From contig OZ024740.1 of NCBI GenBank assembly GCA_964016885.1, positions 441,998,001-442,062,000 of the forward strand: a stretch of DNA of 64,000 nt, in the 5' to 3' direction. This document shows positions 1,079 to 60,840 of this stretch, piece by piece; within the stretch, counting starts at the first letter, position 1, and each line of letters opens with the position of its first letter. The translations under genes and the position numbers were made by a program. Below the pieces are notes generated by a model, which ran no database searches, had not been told where the DNA came from, and worked only from the letters and a program-made list of their open reading frames with translations. This stretch comes from Eledone cirrhosa. Taxonomy: Eukaryota.

Positions 1079-44967
<43,889 letters not shown>

Positions 44968-45069
44968 AGTTTAATCTGCAAATAGAAGAAACATTTTTTT
45001 AAAGTTTAATGATGTTTGTGTTAGGTTCAATAGGTAAAATTTATGCAAAAAAAAGGAGAGAGAGAGAGA

Positions 45070-45155
<86 letters not shown>

Positions 45156-46684
45156 TTAAAGGATCTCCGTCTGTTTCAATAATGAGTGTTTTAGTTGTTC
45201 TGTCAACCGAAAGACTGAGAGTTACGGCCCTTTATGGTCTGAGTCCAAATCCCGCCAAGGTTAACTTTGCCTGTCATCCTTACGGGGTCGATAAAATAAA
45301 GTACCAGTAATACACTAGGATAATTGCTGGCCTTGTGCCAAAAGTAGAAATAATTATTCCTTCCAGAACCATTCATAGCCTTTATGTATTTCTCGGTGAG
45401 GAGATTCAACGTAACATTGTAAATAACATGACAGGCTCTTTGAATTACAAGTAGAGACCATCTGACTGGTACAGTCAAAATATCGGAAGCGGCGTTAATA
45501 TCAGACGATCGTTAAAGAAGAGGGTTATCTTCAACTAAAAATAGAACCAACTCTTATCACCTGGATGCGGCCCGGCCCCTTTAGAGTATATGCCGAAAGA
45601 TTTGCTTGAGGGTGAGGGTAGAGGGTTTTTCTCTGACGACCTGATATCCAGCTCTCCTGAGTTTCTTATCACTGACTCAAGGAGAATTTACCTCTTACTT
45701 TCCTATAATCGCTACCTATGAAGATTTTCCATCATTTGTTGACCTTTTATTGCTTTAATTATTGGCCTGCAACCATGTTTAGAGACTGTCTACCATACCA
45801 AACACCGTATATTCTCTAGCATGTACATTATCGCCTTCGCAAACAGTTGCTTGTCTTCCTGTCCTCTACATTGAGAGCCGTGGTACCGAGGTTTGTGGTC
45901 GGGGCGACTAAATTGAAGGCGGAGAACATGTCATGTCCCAAATAAAGGATTTATCTCCTTCGAAAGAGAAGAGAGGAATTCCATCAGGGTGTTTGCAGTC
46001 ACCCGAGGCCTACTGGCTCCAGTTGTAAAAAATATCATATTGGAAAAAAATTCATTCAGTCAATTTATCACTATTAATTCTTTACGATTCTCTCAGATAT
46101 TTGCCGTCTGACAGTCGCAGATATTTCTTTCCATTCGAAGGGGGTAGATCCCTCATCTGAGACGCCACATGTTGTGACACGTTCTCCACCTCCAACTTAA
46201 TCGACCACAAACCCCGGTACTGAGGCCGGCAATGCAGAGGAAAAGAAGACAAACAAATACCGGTGATTGACCGACCCCTTCCTCATCTCACCGGTCGTCA
46301 TGGAGACCTCAGGCGTACTTGGACTCCATATTGCCGAGCTCCTCCGCAAGATTGTTAGCAGCCCGTCTGGGGGGGAGTTCCCCATGAGGTGGGGTGGCTG
46401 CTGCATTGGGTGTCGCTAGACATTGTCTGCGGAAATCATATTGCAGTCTTGTCCGTGGGGTGTAGCCCCAAAACTGCCGCGCCCTATGCCAGAGCACCCC
46501 CCTCTTTCCCCCTCCCATTCTTCTGTGACCCTAGAGCCCTTGCCTTTCCCTTATTTTCCTATTTTTAAATATCAATAAAGTTATTATGAGTTGTTGTTTT
46601 TTTCAATGGAGAAATAAGCAAACTTAAGCTACAGTATCACAACAAGTTCCATTGACCCCTATTTCAGCTACAGTCGTACCACTA

Positions 46685-46800
46685 TTTCAGCTACAGTATC
46701 ACAACAGACTAAGTTTCAGCTACAGTATCACAACAGACTAAGTTTCAGCTACAGTATCACAACAGACTAAGTTTCAGCTACAGTATCACAACAGACTAAG
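46685..46800. repeat. 29-bp tandem repeat x4
   Basis: tttcagctacagtatcacaacagactaag. Confidence 0.9.
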
Positions 46801-47814
46801 GGAATCATCGTCTGTTAAATTACTGCCAATACCATTCTCTTCCGCTCCTTATAGATTCATATATTTCTGGTTAAATATGAGCTCAGTGAACATTCTGTAT
46901 TCAAAATAGATTCCTTTGGCGAAAATCATTTTTTTTTTCATTCAACAGGTTTAAATTGGAACAAGAAAAGAAAATGAAGCAATTAATCCCTTACCTAACA
47001 GACGTTAACTTAAAAAATGTATCCCATCAAATGGAAATTATTTTTAGGTTGGACTTTTTAGAAAACATTATACGCCATCTTGTAAACGAGTAAACACTGA
47101 TTGCCCTAGTTATTTCATTGTCGTATATAATAAGATGGCTGAATGGAGACGGTGTTTTATAAAAAGTAGCTAATAAATTATTTCAAACCCGTTCTAAGCG
47201 TTGTCTTGTGTTTCTGAAAAGACGCGTTACTACATGTGACTGAGTTGACATCGCCTGAAAATATTCAAACATTTAGATCACGTCTCTAAATAACATACAT
47301 TCCAACGGTATAATTGTTTCTACTTTTGGCACAAGGCCAGCAATTATCCCAGTGTATTACTGGTACTTTATTTCATCCCATAAGGATGAAAGGCAAAGTT
47401 AACCTCGGCGGGATTTGAACTCAGACCATTAAGGGCCGTAACTCTTTGCTGCAAAGCATGGCGTCCGACCCTCTCCCGATACTGCCAATCCACCGCCCTT
47501 GCAACTCATTATTCCAACAGAATGAGTTGCTTTAATGAATATTGGTGTCTAACTTATGTTAAAATGGCACAAATGAAGATTATGTGGCATGCATGCCTTG
47601 CTGATTGCCATTTATGGATTTATATAATGACGTTGCCTGAAGAGAAAGAGCAGCGCCCATGAGCCTCTGTCGAGATGTGGGAGACTGGTGAGAGGAAATA
47701 AAGAGTTTATCCTTCAGTCGAAAACCTGATCCGAATGAGACAGAAACAAACACCATAATGCATTGTTTTCTCGATTTACCTATTCTTCCATCTCAAGCAT
47801 ATACACACGCACGC

Positions 47815-47850
<36 letters not shown>

Positions 47851-48143
47851 GTACATACACACACATGTATATATACATATATACACACACACATATATAT
47901 ATATATATATAAGAAAAGAGTAAGGACCCTGACGGGTGAGCTCTGGCCGTTTCGACAGCTAAATCCGAACTATGTATATATATATACATGTACATACACA
48001 CACATATGTATATATATATGTGTGTATATATATACATATACATATACACACACACATATACATATACACACACACACAAATATGCACACATATATACACA
48101 CACACATATACATATACACACACACACAAATATGCACACATAT

Positions 48144-48271
<128 letters not shown>

Positions 48272-48402
48272 AATCGAAAATGCAACTGGAATCGTGTTTT
48301 TTTAAAAATATATATTTATTTGGTTCCTCTACCGGTTTCGCAGTTCTTCTGCTTTTCAAAAGTAGAGTTGAGATGGAGAGTCTGTGGTTTTTCTCACATC
48401 TG

Positions 48403-48443
<41 letters not shown>

Positions 48444-49009
48444 CTATATATATATATACATACACACACTCACACACACACACCTATATATATATACATA
48501 CACACACTCACGCATTCTTTTATTGTTTTACTGGTTTCAATGATCTACGGCCATGCTGGGTCATCACTTTCGAGGAGTCCAGTCGATCATATCGACCCCA
48601 GTAGCTGGTTGTACCAAACCTGCAATTTACTCTATCGCTCATGGTAGTAAACATAAATACAGTTACATAGGGCATTGTTCAACCCATGGCAATGGAAGAA
48701 GATATTTGCTGAAGGGGTCAAGCAGGAGGACTGACCTCTAAACCATAGGGTTACAAAATGGCCTCCTTAATATTCTATGGTATCAGCCCTTAACTGTTGA
48801 TGCAGACGTAGGGTCTATGAAGCGGAACCCATCCCTCTCCAGGTCTGAACACCAGAGAAAGAGAGAAAAGAGGAAGAATCGACCCCAGTACATTACTGGT
48901 ACCTTATTTATCGCCCTCGAAAGGGTGGATGGCAAAGTTAACCTCGGTGCGATTTGAAGGAAGGACACAGAGAGCTAAAACGAATGCCGCAAATTATTCT
49001 TAATTGGCG

Positions 49010-49163
49010 GCCAAATATATATTGCCTGATGAGCCTGTGTAAAACAGGCGAAACTCCGCCAAATATATATTGCCTGATGAGCCTGTGTAAAACAGGCGAA
49101 ACTCCGCCAAATATATATTGCCTGATGAGCCTGTGTAAAACAGGCGAAACTCCGGAGTAACAA
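49010..49163 (+). ncRNA. Tandem triplicated hammerhead ribozyme core (48-bp unit x3)
   Basis: CTGATGA-GCCTGT-gtaaa-ACAGGC-GAAA x3; the last copy has palindromic stem III ACTCCGGAGT and a GTA triplet at 49157-49159. Confidence 0.8.
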
Positions 49164-50779
49164 GACTCACTATTTAGCCTTAATAAAATGAATGTGCATG
49201 TGTATTTATGTGTGTGTGTATGTGTGTATATGTGTGTATGTGTATGTGTATGTGTGTATGTGTGTTGTGTGTGTATATGTGTGTGTATGTGTGTATATAT
49301 ATGTATGTGTATGTATGTATGTGTATGTGTGTGTAAACAAACAGAGACAGAAACATGGATTCATGAGAACAATTTCTAATATATCGATTTTAGTTATGTA
49401 AATATTTGATTAGTTTCATTGATACAAAGATATGTGTTTATTGGAGAGTGTGTGTGAATATATGTGTGTGTAGTGGAGTGTGTGTGTGAATATATGTGTG
49501 TGTAGTGGAGTGTGTGTGTGAATATATGTGTGTAGTGGAGTGTGTGTGTGAATATATGTGTGTGTAGTGGAGTGTGTGTGTATGAATATATGTGTGTGTA
49601 GTGGAGTTTGTGTGTGTGAATATATGTGTGTTTTGGAGTGTGTGTGTGTGTGAATGTATGTGTGTGAATGTATGTGTGTGTGTGTGTTTTGAGTGTGTGT
49701 GTGAATGTATAAGTGTGTGTGTTAGTGAATGCCTGTGTGTGCGTGTTGGAGCGAATGTGTGTTTGTTGGAGTGTGTGTATATGAGTGTGTGTATGTGTGC
49801 ATGTGTTGGAGTATGTGTGTATATGAGTGTGTGTGTGCATGTGTTGGAGTGTGTGTGTATGCGTGTGTGTCTGTTTAAATCGTTCAACTGATATCAGCAA
49901 TACGACTGACTTTTTCTCGATACGTGTGATCGATATGTTTGATCGATATGTCTGATCGATATGTCTGATCGCTATGAGTGATCGATACGTGTAATCGATG
50001 TGTATCGTTGCCGTTATCAGCCGAGGTGTCAACCTCAATGACTCAAGACAACGAAAAGACGTTACTTGATCTGCCAGATATCACCACCAAATCTCTCTCA
50101 AATCACACTGAATCGTCTTTATAAAAACAAAAGAGCAAATACGTTATATAATACTGTCCTAGGTACTAAACGGGATGGTCACGGTTGGAACTTAATTAGT
50201 GAAATGTCTGCTCATTCGGTCAGGCTTGACTCTCGACTAGACGACAATAATAATACCGACTGTTCCTATTTTCATACTTAAATATATATTTACCCTCACA
50301 CAGAGACAGACAGACAGATAGATATATCAGAACAAATACTATATCAACGAACCAACATTGCTAAGGTGTGTACTGGAGGATGAAGGAAAACAATATATAT
50401 GTATACATATATATATATATGTGGGGGAGGGGTGGGAGGAATAGAAAGAGAAGGAGAAGGGAATATGAAACTAAATGGCGCGAAGTTGAAAGTTCCTGAT
50501 ATCTAGCGAAGAACTGATCTTATTGGCTGAATTTGTTGAAGTACAATTTGTAGTTCTCGGCAATACAGTAGCAACTTGATCAGAAGACGTGAAAATAGGA
50601 GTTTTACTGGGATCTTCAGAATATGGAACAAAGGCCATAGAATCTAGAACGAGGTGGGACACCGTACAGCAGAGTTAACCTATACAACGCCCTTGATTAC
50701 CCAGTCGCAACCTCAGAATTGTGAGTCCTAATATTGGAAATGCATTAATTACGTCATCTAGTGATGTCATTACAAGACA

Positions 50780-51000
50780 GACATAGAAATACATCGATTG
50801 AGAAGCTCTTGATATCACATACAGCAAGAAGGAAGATACTGAAATGGATCGATCGTGTAATAAGGTCACCCAATAACTAGGTAGTATTAACTTTCTGCCA
50901 AGGTTTCTCAAACAAAAGACCACGTGGTAGACCACATAAGACATGGTACTCTCATATCGTCTAATAGTTGAAGACAAGATGTGGTCTAGCTGGCAGAAGG
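50780..51000 (+). pseudogene. Highly decayed LINE C-terminal fragment
   Basis: RRKILKWIDRVIR...KRPRGRP resembles the RTE L.W.GHV.R...RPRGRP motif. Confidence 0.5.
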
Positions 51001-51155
51001 GGACGAGCTGCCAGAAAAGAAAGGGCAGCAGCAACGAACTCCCTCCTACATCAATGGCCAGACAACACAGGCTGGATATAGAAAGAGACGCAATAAGAGC
51101 GGTACTCCAGCATGGCCTCAGTCGGATGGCTGGAACAGGTTAAAGAGTAAAAGAG

Positions 51156-51282
<127 letters not shown>

Positions 51283-51450: not shown

Positions 51451-54400
51451 TATAGTTATGTATACACTGTATACAACTATAAACAGGAAAGGTCAGTAAT
51501 TTATTACTACCTTATTATCAGTAAGAAAAAATAGCTCAATGTAAATACATGAGATGTGTTACAGAGGTGGAATATAAATTACACAATAATTAAAGCTATG
51601 TTCAAATCATTTTATTGCTGGCAATCGTTTCTTCCAAACTATTGTTTGGAATCATCGGAGCAGTAGCAATGTTTGTACATATAATTAACCTTCTATTCAA
51701 CTGAACAATCATATAGATACATGGATATTAAAGTTGTCAACAGTTTCGTATTTACAAGGTGAAATGGATGCGACATAGATTACAAGAGAATTATAGAATA
51801 ATTAACATTACAAATTAAAAATTAAAAATTAAAAATTAAAAATTAAAAATTATAAAGGTACAGAGTGGAATGCAAGCGACAGAGATTATAAGGGAATAGT
51901 ATAACAATTAAAGAGGCATTAAGGTAGAAAGTTACTCGTAAAACGAGGAAACTAGCAGTACATATGCAAGCGTAAAGAGAGTGCAATGCATCAGTCATAT
52001 ACAGGAAGGAAACAAGCAATGGAATTAGGCATATATAATTTTTTGCAAGGCAAAGGTATCACATGAAATAAGCATATCAGGCAAAGCTGTTTTTGTATTA
52101 AAACTATGGCTTTATGGTGGATGTAGTGTGACTGTTGTTTCTGTAATGTTCAAATGTATATGTGCTGAGAGTATCAATGTTATTGTTAACTTTTCCATTA
52201 GATTGGCTATGTTTTATTTTAGTGAATGTTTTTAATCAGTCACAGCCCTGGATTATATACCGGTCCTATTATATTGCTATCAGGGGTTCAAGTTTCTGTG
52301 GAGTGATTTTACTAACGGTTTAATTTCCGGAAGTGAGTTTGATCTATATTAAAGGGAGCTAATACGAAAGGGGAGGTAACTAGCGATTACATTGTATATG
52401 ATAGGAATTAAAAAAATGTAAAGTTGTTTACAGCTCCAATCTGCTAAAATCTTTGTGTTGATATACATTATATTATAAGTGAATCCCTTTTATATAATGC
52501 TATTAGTTTATATTTAATTTTGAATAGAATCTATTTTCCTATAATACATTAAAGGTCTCATTATATTGTTATCTATTCCTTACTTAATAAAGTATAAGAA
52601 AGTTACAGGAAAAAAATGTATAGTTGTTTACAGGTCTAATTAGTTAAATCTCTTGTGCTATTAATATACATTATATTATGTTATAAGTGAATCCCATATA
52701 TATAATGCTATTAATTTATGTTTAATTATAAATATAATTTATTTTTCTATACTACATTAAGTGTCTCATCATATTATCTATCCATTACTGAATATAATAT
52801 AAGCAAGATATAGTGGTTATATTAAATGGTGTTAGCTTTGTGTTTATTCTAAATGGTTATTGTATAGTATAAAGTTAGAGAAAAAAGGAGTTAAGTAGAG
52901 TGATGAGCTGATCAAAGAGTGAGATGATGTGGAGGTACTTATATGCCGATAATACCTAAAGTTGAGGTGTTAATGGTGGTGAGGAATTCAGATCTGACAT
53001 TGTTATATATTAGCAGCTAGGTTTAAAGCTATGAAAAGAGTGTCGCTGGTAGTGCTGGCACACTGTAAAAAACCTCTGATTTTCTATTTAGGAGGTCTAG
53101 CTTAGAATAGATTATTGTTCGGGTCTCTAGAAGACAGGGGTTACATAATTGATTAGGTGGTTTATACGGTGCGGCCCTATCTACTATCTCCCATTGAAGT
53201 GTATATGGTCTATTCCAAGTTTTCAGAGAGTGTATGTAGTTAGATAAAGAAGTGGAGTTGGCTAGATTGCGATTTTTGAAAGTGTGGAGATACGAGTCTT
53301 GAAGCAGTTTGAAGTTGAACCTATATATGTTTTAGAAGAGTTGTTTGTGTTGACCGTGCATGAGTAAATGATGTCTTTGATTAAGCAATTTTTACCTAAG
53401 GGGCAAGATCTATTTGTTCTACAGTTACAGTTATTCTGTTTGTTTGCTTGCCGGTTACTATGATGTGTAGATGCTTGGTTGTTAGGGATAGCATTAGGGT
53501 AATGATGTTTGTCGTTCACATTGTTATTAATTTCATTAGTGTTATTATCATTATTATTATTGCAACAAGAAATCTCTGGTACTATGTTGCCCTGTAAGTT
53601 TACCTCCTGCTGTGATTTAATTAGTTGGAAATAATTATTAATCTTCCTTTTATTACTACTAGCTATATGGTATGCGATGTTAGGTGTGATAGAGTAAGAG
53701 ATTTTAATGGTATTTTTATTGATAAGATTATGGTATCTGTGGCCGTCTGGGAAGTTCTTTTCTAAGATTGAGAAGAAAGCCTTCGGTAAGTTGGTAGAGA
53801 TGTTTAGATTGAAAAGGGGGTTGAAGAATGTATTAGTTCTTCTTCTAGTTTTGTTTTTTGTAATTTTATTTGAAGTATTGTTTATATTTCTGTTTATACT
53901 ATTATTGTGGTGTTTATTCTGGTGCGAGTTAAGTTTGATATTACCCTTTGTATTATAGTTATAGTGACTAGTACTTTTATTATTTTTCCTCATGGCCATA
54001 TTGTGAGAAATAATGTTGTAACTAGGTGATTTTTTAGGTAGAAATTTAATCTCATTTTATGTCCTGATCAAGCTAAGGCCTCATTATAGTATTGGGAATT
54101 ATTGTTAAATATGGTTTCGTTATATGATAGATTAGAGATTCTATTTGATATTCCTTTAGTAATTGAGTTTAATATAGATTTAGGGTGGTTAGAGTTGATA
54201 TCTACGTAAAGTAGTTTTTCGTTTGGTTTATGGAAGGGTGTATATATTTTAGAGTCCAGGTAAAGGGTAACATCAAGGAAGTTAACGTGTTTAGTGTTTT
54301 TATCTAAAGTGATACTAAGTTGTAGTTTTTGAAAATTTTATGTAATTGTTTCCTGGTTCTTTCTATATTAAATTTGTTATAGTCAATAAGAAGTAGTGCA

Positions 54401-57007: not shown

Positions 57008-57211
57008 AATATTTATACTTATATATGTTTAATATACAACTATAAATATGGAGGGTAGTACTAAGTACTAACCGGTTACTGGTATAAGAAAAGGCTCAAT
57101 GCAAATTATCAAGTGTTTTACAGAGCCGAGATACAAAGTGTTAAAACAATCAAATCTTAGTTTAATACATTTATGTATTAAACTAAGATTTAATTGTGTT
57201 AAAACTTTGTG

Positions 57212-57279
<68 letters not shown>

Positions 57280-57977
57280 CATGTATATGTATATATTAAA
57301 GTCCGCTATTGTCAAATTATCATAAGTGGCAGTTACAATAACAACAGAAATAATAATAAACAAGATGACTAACCTGTAAATTAAAAGGCCAGCTTGGATT
57401 GTGTTGAGCAAGTAGTCGTGTTGTGTTATGAAAAGATAGCAGAGCTCTGTTATATTTATATGTGATTTAGTTTTGACGTGGCAACAGCAAACATATCCGT
57501 CAGACTATTGGATGGACGACAGAACGATATTATCTAGAGAGATAAAGCGATGAGTAGAATGATGGATGGGTGGCAGGCTGGCTGGTTGGTTAAATCGCTT
57601 GATAGATAAGTAGATGATGATGATGATGATGACGTGGGCGGCGACGGTGTAGTCCTAGCTACTGTTTCTTCACCTCTCTTTGTTTTATTCATATTCGGAT
57701 TTTTTATTGCGTTCTTTTTTTTTACTTATCGTCCGCCAAAATCCTGTTTCGCTCCACCCCACGCCACCCTATTTCACCTCATGCCACCCAACCACCACTC
57801 CACCTCACCCCACCGTACCGCACCGCACTCGACCCCACCCGACCCCACCTCCGCCCAACCAATCACCACCCCACCCCACTTCACCCCACCTCGTTCTCAA
57901 TTTTGTTCTGCTTGTCTCATTCTGATTTTTTCTCTCTTCTTTTTTCGTGTCACTGTTACCTCTTCTCCTATCACCCC

Positions 57978-58068
<91 letters not shown>

Positions 58069-59774
58069 ATCTATCTATCTGTTTCTTACATGTGACCATC
58101 GTGTGTATTTGAGCTGCTCTCTTCTAGAAATGGTTCCATTGTTACGCCACAGACACGAGGTCACTACAGATGTAAAATGATGGTGTATCTTCAATTAGAT
58201 CTACTGCAGCGCGTGTTTAGGTGATTGGTACTTTATTTTATCAACCTTGGAAGGATGAAAGGCAAAATTGATTCCCGCAACATTTGATCTCAGATGCGAC
58301 ATGAACCAATGTGCGGTGCTCTACATATTCTGCCAATATACCACACCCATTATCTTAACTCATACTGTTGGAATTCTTATAATTTTATCTTTAATGCTGA
58401 TTTTTTTTAGTTAATCAATTAATTTTAATTGCGAGTAGAATGCAAATCAATACCGATCCGAATCGATCTTTATAGGCAATAATTAAGCTTAGTTCTGCAA
58501 TTGATGCCAAGAAAATAACATAATCTATATTTTTGCTTTTCATTACAAAGAATGTTTGCATTAAACATGAAATATAAAACTTAATATTTTCCTCATTGTC
58601 TCCAATAATTATCCAGTTGTTATTGCAAGTATTGAGGGATGCTTCTGGAATATTTATAAAAGATTTCATTTTATTTTTAATCCAATTTTAAAACCAATCA
58701 TCAGAATACTAAAGGTTAGAGACTTTATCCTGAAGCCAGCATCAGGTTGTAACCAAAACAGAATCTACTTATGCGGTTCCCAACCTTTACACTATTAAAA
58801 ACCCATTTTATTTTGAATACTTTCTGTTAGGAACTGGAATACACATTTACTCAGTTCACTTTGGAACTATAGGAACAATATAAAAATATAATTCACTTTG
58901 TGAATGGATGTTGGATCATAATGTTGTGGGTTCCATTCATGGCTTGTGTGTTGTGTTCTTGAGCAAAACACTTCATTTCACGTTACTCCAGTATATTCAG
59001 CTGAAAATGAGTACCAGCAATAGTTGTGGGTTTAACCATGCGATGGACTGGCGTCATATCCAGGGGAGGGGGAGTCTTTTACTCTCAGTCGCTTCACGCC
59101 ATGAAACCGGGATAAGCACCGGCTTCATGTACCTCCGGATTTGATAAGGACTTTAGATTTTATCATTTACTTTGGAACTTAGGAGGTATGTGGAATTATA
59201 GTTCTCTAGCGAACTTCATTATTTGAGAGAGTCCTAGGACGGTGGATTGGCAGTACCGGTAGAGGGTCGGACGCCATGCTTTGCAGCATAGAGTTACGGC
59301 CCTTTACGTTCTGAGATCAAATCCCGCCTAGGTTAACTTTGCCTTTCATCCTGACGGGGTCGATAAAATAAAGTACCAGTCTCGCACTGGGGTCGATTTA
59401 ATCGACTTTCCCCTCTCCCAGAATTGCTGACCTTGTGCCTATATATGAAAACAATATTTGAGGGAGTCCTGGGGTAGAAATGGCTACTAACTTTAGGCTT
59501 GGTTATTTAACATGGTGGAGGATATTTCATACAATATTTAGGATCGGCTTTCATCCCTCCGGATGTTGTTAAAGTGTAGGACAAAATGCCTTCCGATATT
59601 TGTTTCAGTTGTTTGCGCTCCAAGTCTACAGAGGTGACCTTTGATTTCACTCTGCCAGGGTCGATATCAAAAACGGTGGATTGGTGAAGTTGTTAGAGCG
59701 TCGGAAAACATCACTTTCAGTAACTGTCTACGCATTTTACATTCGAGAACAAATCCTCAGTGACCTACTTGGGT

Positions 59775-60115
59775 GATAGATTTAATCAGGTACCCAGTTT
59801 AACACCATCATCTGGTCCTTCAGTGATATTTTTAATCGGGTACCCGGTTTAACATCATCTGGTCCTTCTGTGGTAGATTTAATGAGGTACCCAGTTTAAC
59901 ACCATCATCTGGTCCTTCAGTGATAGATTTAATCAGGTACCCAGTTTAACACCATCATCTGGTCCTTCAGTGATAGATTTAATCAGGTACCCAGTTTAAC
60001 ATCATCTGGTCCTTCAGTGATAGATTTAATCCGGTACCCAGTTTAACACCATCATCTGGTCCTTCTGTGGTAGATTTAATGTGGTACCCATTTTAACACC
60101 ATCATCTGGTCATTC
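59775..60115. repeat. 47/50-bp minisatellite, about 7 copies
   Basis: gatagatttaatcaggtacccagtttaacaccatcatctggtccttcagt. Confidence 0.92.
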
Positions 60116-60548
60116 GGTACCTTTAATGGAGTCTATTGCAAGCCTTCGAACCAAGTCCCCACAGTGAGGGCACTTTTCTCTTTCAGGGACCTTGAAAATA
60201 ATCATAGACTCTACCCTTGACTAATTATTTAAAAGAGGTGGGGAGTACGATAAAATACGTACCAGTGATATACTGAGGAGTGGTTCAGTTGCTTATATCC
60301 GTCCCCTATTGATATATAGCCTTGTGCCACTTTAAGAAATAATTATGTCAACCCTGATTCTCGAAGATTCTCTTGAGAATTCCTGAAGTATTTATTTATT
60401 TATTTATTTATTGTTTGTTTAACATTTTCTTGAACCAGAAAAAGTTCTACTTTGGGGAAAGAGTAAATGGTAATTCCATTTCTCTGTAAAAGTACATTCC
60501 ATTGTATATAAAGGGAAAAAAACAGGATGATCAACTCCAGCTACTTCC

Positions 60549-60655
60549 CGTCTCCCTAACAGATGTACCCTTCTCCCTAACAGATGTCCCCTGTCTCCCT
60601 AACAGATGTACCCTGTCTCCCTAACAGATTTACCCTGTCTCTCTAACAGATGTAC
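60549..60655. repeat. ~22-bp tandem repeat
   Basis: ctccctaacagatgtaccctgt. Confidence 0.88.
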
Positions 60656-60840
60656 ACTTTAGCTATAAAGCCACAACTTAGAAATGATATTTGGCCGAAA
60701 AGATATTTTCCTTAAGATATTTCCTACGCCAGTATTCTATTGATACTCATATATAACACTTCATATATTGTATGTATGTATGTGTATAACACTTCATATA
60801 TTGTATGTATGTATGTATGTATGTATCAGTAATGACGGTA

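What the first reader, a model, noticed from the sequence alone, without database searches (positions are those of the whole stretch)
49010..49163. Head-to-tail triplication of a hammerhead catalytic core
Seen: an exact 48-bp unit x3 with CTGATGA, a perfect 6-bp stem II and GAAAC. Only the third copy keeps the palindromic stem III (ACTCCGGAGT) and the GUA triplet, and its first stem I pair is a C-A mismatch. Inference: either slippage or repeated template jumps during reverse transcription. The extra cores could act as cis enzyme strands on the single cleavage site and remove the need for intermolecular dimerisation.
Basis: partly seen in the sequence, partly recalled or inferred. Interest (0 to 1): 0.72.

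Follow-up and report, generated by a model that had tools for sequence, protein, structure and literature searches.

The report
Broken hammerhead remnant turned minisatellite
A cut-short, probably inactive self-cleaving RNA motif, likely left by an old Penelope-type jumping gene, sits here as three identical 48-base copies (two in a near-identical block nearby), most likely through an ordinary DNA duplication after it inserted.

Summary
In detail: three identical 48-bp units at 49010-49153, and only the third has the stem III palindrome and the GUA site. The junction is also in read-derived contigs of one sample. A 99%-identical block 189 kb away has two units, and a non-ribozyme 29-bp array in the same block varies 4 versus 6, so the unit behaves as an ordinary VNTR. 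The hammerhead is a 5'-truncated end of an abundant old repeat that reads as the pseudo-LTR of a Penelope-like element. Each unit holds 12 nt of non-element flank and private substitutions (0 of 40 other copies parsed), so the duplication likely came after insertion; template jumps are unlikely. The extra cores can give a 6-bp cis stem III, as proposed. But every core shares the same broken stem I (3 bp plus C-A at the cleavage site; -0.3 versus -5.3 kcal/mol), and the modelled active fold never exceeds about 1%. No other core multimer was found in the genome. The scan had not noted this sequence on other DNA. Ordinary: a transposon-derived minisatellite.

The parts
49010..49057 (+). Unit 1: 12 nt non-element flank, 4 nt remnant of the stem I 5' strand, core, stem II, GAAA, 5' half of stem III; no cleavage site of its own
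49058..49105 (+). Unit 2, identical to unit 1; the block copy 189 kb away has one unit fewer
49106..49153 (+). Unit 3, identical; it runs on into the rest of the hammerhead
49149..49158 (+). Palindromic stem III (CCGG loop variant, 5 of 42 parsed family copies; CCAG in 15 of 42). The right end of the repeat lies at its centre
49157..49159 (+). GUA triplet; predicted cleavage after A49159; the only NUH site in 48900-49300 with more than 2 bp of stem III beyond pair 15.1
49160..49165 (+). Stem I 3' strand ACAAGA; its normal 6-nt partner is cut down to TTGC by 5' truncation
49160..49193 (+). 3' end of the Penelope-like pLTR fragment; 34 nt past the site, in the family's commonest 3' end class (28-36 nt, 15 of 29 copies), followed by (TG)n
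49001..49021 (+). Non-element spacer ending in ATATATA; holds a palindrome with 5-bp arms (49004-49014) whose centre is the left end of the repeat
48860..49000 (+). Fragment of a separate abundant short interspersed repeat (101 hits in 188 fetched loci; homology ends at or before 49000)
41719..51226 (+). Block of about 9.5 kb present twice in the assembly (second copy G000:C1:441850764-441860137, same strand); 28 substitutions in 4044 unique bases; segmental duplicate or second haplotype, not resolved
46685..46800 (+). Internal control: perfect 29-bp array of non-ribozyme DNA, 0 bp microhomology, 4 copies here and 6 in the second block

Best explanation
This is a transposon-derived minisatellite: three identical 48-bp units (two in a near-identical block 189 kb away) built on a 5'-truncated hammerhead that likely comes from the pseudo-LTR end of an old Penelope-like retroelement, likely duplicated at DNA level after insertion and likely inactive. 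Step 1 (family anatomy shown, mechanism inferred): a short cDNA covering only the hammerhead and about 34 nt downstream inserted between an ATATATA stretch and (TG)n, cut off inside stem I. Step 2 (inferred): the copy picked up private substitutions. Step 3 (inferred): a near-blunt tandem duplication took 12 nt of flank plus 36 nt of ribozyme, probably by break or staggered-nick repair, since the junction has 1 bp of microhomology. Step 4 (copy-number difference shown): slippage or unequal exchange changed the number, now 2 or 3. If transcribed, the RNA is predicted to fold mostly into unit-to-unit hairpins and to cleave little or not at all.
For: Copy number 3 versus 2 in the two block copies; the neighbouring arrays vary the same way (29 bp 4 vs 6; 26 bp 113.7 vs 115.9). 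The core-to-core junction pattern matched 3 times in the genome, all in these two loci; a family-type junction pattern matched 0 times. The flanks exist only twice. Family: 68 distinct copies in 60 loci; U-A at 2.1/1.1 in 31 of 42 parsed, C-A in 3 of 42. The window's loop variant and flank occur in 0 of 40 parsed copies. The family extends some 500-900 bp upstream. In L152 a degraded YIG-type endonuclease frame is followed on the same strand by that region, a hammerhead 90.5% like the window's over 74 nt, and (TG)n. 13 of 29 copies have family motifs of an inverted copy within 200 nt upstream, a Penelope hallmark (PMC8557442). Stem I duplex -0.3 versus -5.3 kcal/mol in an intact copy. A mismatch at 1.1 lowers cleavage at least 500-fold according to a review (PMC3138052, passage; same direction in PMC8495972). 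Even intact metazoan PLE hammerheads cleave weakly as dimers or trimers (PMC4209133).
Against: In the folding model the 3x form partly compensates. Core 1 reaches an active-fold probability of 1e-6 to about 1e-2 over 35 boundary choices, overlapping intact single copies (6.7e-4 to 1.8e-3 in three properly constrained controls; 7.7e-10 in a fourth) and mostly above the 2x form (1e-8 to 6e-5 for starts up to 49010, but up to 1e-2 when cut at 49020). The model ignores tertiary contacts and protein help; a Penelope hammerhead was found to be protein-assisted (PMC11167929). Both repeat ends sit at the centre of 5-bp-arm palindromes (background 1% per position), which the neutral account does not predict; this was noticed after the fact. 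The Penelope assignment of the parent rests on motif reading: Pfam gave GIY-YIG for 1 of 5 fragments, below cut-off and possibly from a sister family, and nothing for the related 897-aa frame. No intact parent was found. Only 2 of 30 endonuclease loci hold the hammerhead itself within 1.5 kb. No single-unit ancestral allele was seen. Genome searches score only the best candidates.
Confidence: 0.8

Rival explanations
1. The repeat arose during insertion through repeated template jumps of the reverse transcriptase on the element RNA.
For: Penelope-like elements make complex tandem and inverted junctions (PMC8557442). The family does so here: 13 of 29 copies have an inverted neighbour. The right end lies at the tip of the stem III hairpin.
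Against: Each unit includes 12 nt that are not element sequence and the same private substitutions; 0 of 40 parsed family copies share them. No donor locus with this flank exists besides the second block. Copy number differs between two 99%-identical blocks. No family-type head-to-tail cores were found.
Confidence: 0.07
2. The triplication restored self-cleavage in cis: units 2 and 3 pair with each other, core 1 is left free to dock on the single GUA site, and the locus cuts a host transcript.
For: A 6-bp cis stem III forms (-8.2 kcal/mol). Core 1 of the 3x form has the highest modelled probability among the arrangements at the first boundary tested (2.6e-3, against 1.8e-6 for 2x and 4e-5 for the last unit alone). 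The core is canonical, with G10.1-C11.1.
Against: Stem I is 3 bp with C-A at the cleavage site for every core. The probability swings over four orders of magnitude with the boundaries and never exceeds about 1e-2. Copy number varies like that of neighbouring non-ribozyme arrays. No exon or host gene was identified nearby (one search lists long ORFs only, so small exons are not excluded).
Confidence: 0.06
3. The multimer is an assembly artefact.
For: No read-derived piece spans the whole stretch. The one sample found may be the assembly's own. The second block could be an unmerged haplotype.
Against: All three runs hold a 78-base contig (49029-49106), exactly one 48-word cycle at word length 31, which contains the unit junction. 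Only 29 letters lie on its left, under the tool's 31-letter rule for bridging. Its depth is 1.79, 1.99 and 2.37 times the flank; expected 1.90 for a 2+3 mix, 2.40 for 3 only, 1.40 for 2 only. The sample carries both block versions at position 50553.
Confidence: 0.03
4. The 48-bp unit is a nascent miniature retrozyme that is cut into monomers, circularised and reinserted.
For: Tandem hammerhead repeats are the layout of animal retrozymes (PMC7229834), and earlier notes report such families in this genome (untested).
Against: The unit has no cleavage triplet, no 3' half of stem III and no 3' strand of stem I, so monomers cannot be released. It is 48 bp against 150-450 bp in the paper. It is confined to one duplicated block.
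Confidence: 0.01

Closest known systems
Minimal type I hammerheads in pLTRs of metazoan Penelope-like elements (Cervera and de la Pena 2014, PMC4209133; parts 1-2 of 4 read, supplements not seen)
   Same: Type I topology, 6-bp stem II with G10.1-C11.1, short palindromic stem III, mostly found as solo motifs of truncated elements or as close inverted pairs.
   Different: This copy has lost most of stem I and has C-A at 2.1/1.1. Its core half is tandemly repeated together with flank, which the parts read do not describe.
Transposon-derived minisatellites / VNTRs (review PMC9659126, 12 of 14 passages read: about 7276 human minisatellites from TEs, any region of the TE)
   Same: A short part of a dead element amplified head to tail, with variable copy number.
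   Different: Only that the amplified part happens to be a ribozyme core plus 12 nt of flank.
Double-hammerhead structures of ASBVd, newt satellite 2 and axolotl retrozymes (PMC6466107, PMC7229834; passages read)
   Same: A second core supplies a longer stem III within one RNA.
   Different: There both hammerheads are complete, each with stem I and a cleavage site. Here there is one site, three cores and no adequate stem I.
Animal non-LTR retrozymes (PMC7229834 passages; bioRxiv 10.64898/2026.07.22.740005, part 1 of 5 read)
   Same: Tandem repeats that carry hammerhead sequence related to Penelope pLTRs.
   Different: Retrozyme units are 150-450 bp with a complete hammerhead in each unit and are dispersed; this unit is 48 bp, incomplete and at one duplicated locus.

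Membership tests
Type I hammerhead ribozyme (functional) | Conserved core CUGANGA ... GAAA and NUH triplet | tested here: met
   core in all three units; GUA at 49157-49159 once
Type I hammerhead ribozyme (functional) | Stem II with G10.1-C11.1 | tested here: met
   GCCUGU/ACAGGC
Type I hammerhead ribozyme (functional) | Stem III, as monomer or double hammerhead | tested here: met
   3 bp as monomer, 6 bp from core 1 or 2 in cis, 10 bp between two molecules
Type I hammerhead ribozyme (functional) | Stem I of 4-6 bp paired up to the cleavage site | tested here: not met
   3 bp with C-A at 2.1/1.1, -0.3 kcal/mol; intact family copies have 6 bp
Type I hammerhead ribozyme (functional) | Self-cleavage | not testable with these tools
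   needs in vitro transcription
Penelope-like element pLTR fragment | Hammerhead near the 3' end, downstream of an endonuclease frame on the same strand | tested here: met
   L152; upstream pLTR part also downstream of the frame in L142, L146, L149 (5 of 30 loci counting the query locus L138)
Penelope-like element pLTR fragment | 5' truncation, adjacent inverted copies, insertion at microsatellites | tested here: met
   26 of 29 copies start within 9 nt of the core; 13 of 29 with an inverted neighbour; (AT)n, (TG)n flanks
Penelope-like element pLTR fragment | Parent ORF with telomerase-like RT and C-terminal GIY-YIG | tested here: inconclusive
   Only broken endonuclease frames of this family were found. 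They are 43% identical over 72 aa to the C-terminal part of an 897-aa genomic ORF whose RT and GIY-YIG motifs I read by eye from own knowledge. Pfam 0 hits for that ORF; GIY-YIG below cut-off for 1 of 5 fragments
Non-LTR retrozyme | Complete hammerhead in at least two consecutive units | tested here: not met
   units lack the triplet and both 3' strands
Non-LTR retrozyme | Dispersed arrays, unit of 150-450 bp | tested here: not met
   48 bp, two loci of one duplicated block
Non-LTR retrozyme | Expression as linear and circular RNA | not testable with these tools
   no RNA holder listed
Transposon-derived minisatellite (VNTR) | Head-to-tail unit of 10-100 bp taken from a transposable element | tested here: met
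   36 of 48 nt are family sequence
Transposon-derived minisatellite (VNTR) | Variable copy number | tested here: met
   3 versus 2 between block copies; variation between individuals not tested

The most novel reading that the evidence does not exclude
A copy-number-gated ribozyme. A chance triplication re-arms a dead Penelope hammerhead in cis: units 2 and 3 sequester each other and core 1 docks on the single GUA site, so the 3-unit version self-cleaves and the 2-unit version does not. A VNTR step would then switch RNA cleavage on or off.
Probability: 0.07. Interest if true: 0.55.

Novelty: new member of a known kind. Interest (0 to 1): 0.15.

Why it matters
As most likely read, it matters little. 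It is one of many minisatellites in a genome full of Penelope-type hammerheads, and it warns motif scanners that tandem cores are not always retrozymes. It does show one plausible first step by which a pLTR fragment enters a tandem array. If the 3-unit form did cleave and the 2-unit form did not, it would be a natural case of a many-core, one-site hammerhead switched by repeat number. That is cheap to test.

Tried and rejected
Rfam at gathering score: nothing. A type III reading suggested by weak Hammerhead_3 matches was rejected: the two other candidate sites in 48900-49300 (48966, 49179) give only 2 bp of stem III and also start stem I with a mismatch. Trans targets for the extra cores: 8 NUH sites on the window's + strand have at least 3+3 bp, the best 4+4 bp, none convincing; the - strand part of that script crashed and was not repeated. 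Expression: no RNA holder listed; this is no evidence either way. Segmental duplicate versus haplotype: the non-duplicated stretch laid for comparison was all high-copy repeat, so single-copy depth could not be read. Walking to the parent: the first 84 bp of the L066 query and the GIY-YIG element in L114/L115/L136/L137 belong to other repeats nested in the family. A Pfam family search could not run. The control part (22 unrelated loci) was largely cut from view; the visible rows were microsatellite matches only. In one search the stem II constraint failed for three controls (L009, L012, L006) and was only 1 bp for L017, so these four of nine were dropped. In one search, 26 of 68 copies had no parsable core and a few parsed rows are out of register. 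Literature: searches listed no paper whose title or abstract start describes core-only hammerhead multimers. No primary paper on the 1.1 mismatch was found; two reviews were used.

Full report
Observation. The repeat is as described: period 48, 3.0 copies, 100% identity, 49010-49154. A unit is 12 nt of flank, TTGC, CTGATGA, a perfect 6-bp stem II, GAAA and CTCC. The palindrome (49149-49158), the GUA triplet (49157-49159) and the 3' strand of stem I follow only unit 3, and C2.1 faces A1.1. The core pattern is found 5 times in the window against 0.49 by chance. Rfam gives nothing at gathering score and only weak Hammerhead_3 matches. The window comes from a 3.0-Gb animal assembly. That it is a cephalopod rests on my recall of the repeat landscape and on earlier notes; it was not tested.

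Is it real? A second locus 189 kb upstream on the same contig has the same flanks and two units. It lies in a 9.5-kb block present twice, with 28 substitutions in 4044 unique bases; the flanks occur only at these two places. Three runs of one sample each hold a 78-base contig over 49029-49106, one full 48-word cycle containing the junction. It has only 29 letters left of the junction, under the tool's 31-letter rule, and the sample may be the assembly's own. Its depth is 1.79, 1.99 and 2.37 times that of flank contigs; a 2+3 mix predicts 1.90, three units alone 2.40, two alone 1.40. At 50553 one run shows the second block's base and two show the window's, so both versions are in the sample. 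Whether they are duplicates or haplotypes is unresolved; either way the unit number varies.

What the hammerhead belongs to. The last unit plus its tail matches an abundant repeat at about 80-96% (55 matches among 40 of 222 candidates scored). In 60 loci there were 68 distinct copies, 42 with a parsable core; 31 of 42 have U-A at 2.1/1.1, 3 have C-A, and many form a 5-6 bp stem I. Of 29 copies found with the hammerhead itself, 26 begin within 9 nt upstream of the core and 13 have motifs of an inverted copy just upstream. Fifteen of the 29 end 28-36 nt after the cleavage site; the window's copy begins 4 nt upstream and ends 34 nt after. Longer copies extend 500-900 bp upstream at 65-85% identity. 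Further upstream lie broken frames with CNC..CPL, YIG.T and LSKYIW motifs. In L152 such a frame is followed by the upstream region, a hammerhead 90.5% like the window's, the same 3' end and (TG)n. One fragment is 43% identical over 72 aa to the C-terminal part of an intact 897-aa genomic ORF, which I read by eye as RT followed by GIY-YIG. Pfam and PDB gave no hit for that ORF, its 335 homologues are essentially unnamed, and Pfam GIY-YIG appeared below cut-off for 1 of 5 fragments. The layout matches published Penelope-like elements: hammerhead in the pLTR, solo and inverted copies, 5' truncation, microsatellite bias (PMC4209133 parts 1-2 of 4; PMC8557442, 12 of 20 passages). I call the parent Penelope-like with fair but not full certainty.

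How the repeat arose. Homology to the upstream short interspersed repeat ends by 49000 and homology to the family begins at 49022, so the first 12 nt of each unit are neither. The stem II loop variant and this flank occur in 0 of 40 other parsed copies, yet all five units in the two blocks share them. Jumps of a reverse transcriptase on element RNA would not copy host flank, and would not repeat private changes unless a donor locus carried them; none was found. So the duplication likely followed insertion. The junction has 1 bp of microhomology, a poor substrate for a first slip. Break or nick repair is a known source of small tandem duplications (PMC8355091, seen only as a search listing with the abstract start). 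Once two units exist, slippage or unequal exchange can change the number (own knowledge). The same block offers a control: a perfect 29-bp array of non-ribozyme DNA with 0 bp microhomology has 4 copies here and 6 in the second block. Minisatellites from any part of a transposon are well known (PMC9659126, 12 of 14 passages). One thing is unexplained: both ends of the repeat lie at the centre of palindromes with 5-bp arms. The background is 1% per position; 2 of 61 partly redundant perfect tandem stretches in 745 kb scored so, the other with 37 registers tested per side. This was noticed after the fact.

Could it cleave? But all cores carry the same stem I arm, 3 bp behind a C-A mismatch (-0.3 kcal/mol, against -5.3 for an intact copy). 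The AU-rich 5' parts of the units pair with each other (-7.8 kcal/mol), as in the minimum-energy fold. Over 35 boundary choices, constrained folding gives core 1 of the 3x form 1e-6 to 1e-2, core 2 at most 4e-5 and core 3 at most 1e-5. The 2x form gives 1e-8 to 6e-5 for starts up to 49010, and up to 1e-2 when the first unit is cut at 49020. Intact single copies with valid constraints give 6.7e-4, 1.5e-3, 1.8e-3 and 7.7e-10, and one natural copy with the same C-A mismatch gives 2.4e-5. So triplication lifts the best fold only to the level of intact monomers. A minimal PLE hammerhead tested in vitro showed no cleavage as a monomer and low cleavage as dimer or trimer (PMC4209133; its supplementary figure S6 was not seen and may bear on this). 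Reviews state that innermost mismatches hurt most, at least 500-fold at 1.1 (PMC8495972 and PMC3138052, passages). Against this, the model has no tertiary or protein terms, and one PLE hammerhead cleaves only with its protein (PMC11167929, parts 1-2 of 4). Nothing is known on expression.

Comparison and verdict. It works like a VNTR on dead transposon DNA. It resembles double hammerheads only in geometry (PMC6466107, 10 passages). It fails the retrozyme tests: units are incomplete, 48 bp and not dispersed (PMC7229834, 12 of 25 passages; bioRxiv 10.64898/2026.07.22.740005, part 1 of 5). Eight paper searches listed nothing on core-only multimers, which more likely reflects triviality than novelty. 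The scan's earlier notes hold no look-alike and nothing nearby; the hammerhead notes for this genome concern units of 310-600 bp. Verdict: real, a new member of a known kind, interest 0.15. The bold reading, a ribozyme switched by repeat number, stays open at about 7%.

Noticed in passing
family copies L003-L020 and L037-L053 (G000): 5' ends cluster sharply: 26 of 29 copies begin within 9 nt upstream of the core, at the start of stem I, where long copies read TTAG|TTCTTGT after a pyrimidine-rich tract. This could be a transcript start, a 3' splice site as described for Drosophila virilis Penelope (PMC4209133), or a reverse-transcriptase stop. With two 3' end classes (28-36 and 89-102 nt past the site), these short copies may be 'strong-stop'-like cDNAs from internal initiation (PMC11167929). 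The sample is biased to better-conserved copies.
   Followed up: partly
window 49004-49014 and 49149-49158: Both ends of the duplicated unit lie at the centre of short palindromes (5-bp arms; background 1% per position). Unexplained; a possible hint of hairpin- or nick-directed duplication.
   Followed up: partly
window 15341-15365 (+): Another hammerhead core of a different family (similar cores in L003 and L019), with its own pyrimidine-rich upstream tract.
   Followed up: no
window 22206-22231 (-): A third hammerhead-core-like motif of yet another sequence type.
   Followed up: no
window 53262-54056 (-): Stop-free frame of 264 aa, 44% identical over 190 aa to the linker and GIY-YIG-like region of the 897-aa genomic ORF in L188: a fragment of a younger Penelope-like family.
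   Followed up: partly
window 41719-51226 and 57056-60806: Block duplicated 189 kb upstream at about 99%, with further collinear pieces at 87-95%; segmental duplicate or unmerged haplotype near the contig end.
   Followed up: partly
L115 752-1300, L136, L137: A separate, younger Penelope-like element (GIY-YIG and RYVDD motifs, its own hammerhead-like core, long inverted arrangement) nested beside copies of the studied family.
   Followed up: no
L142 3119-3330, L046, L086: Other small tandem amplifications of dead-element DNA: a 31-bp array from the same pLTR family (L142), a 13-bp duplication starting at GAAAC in one family hammerhead (L046), and 29- and 57-bp arrays from short interspersed repeats (L086). 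They support a general tendency to minisatellite formation.
   Followed up: no
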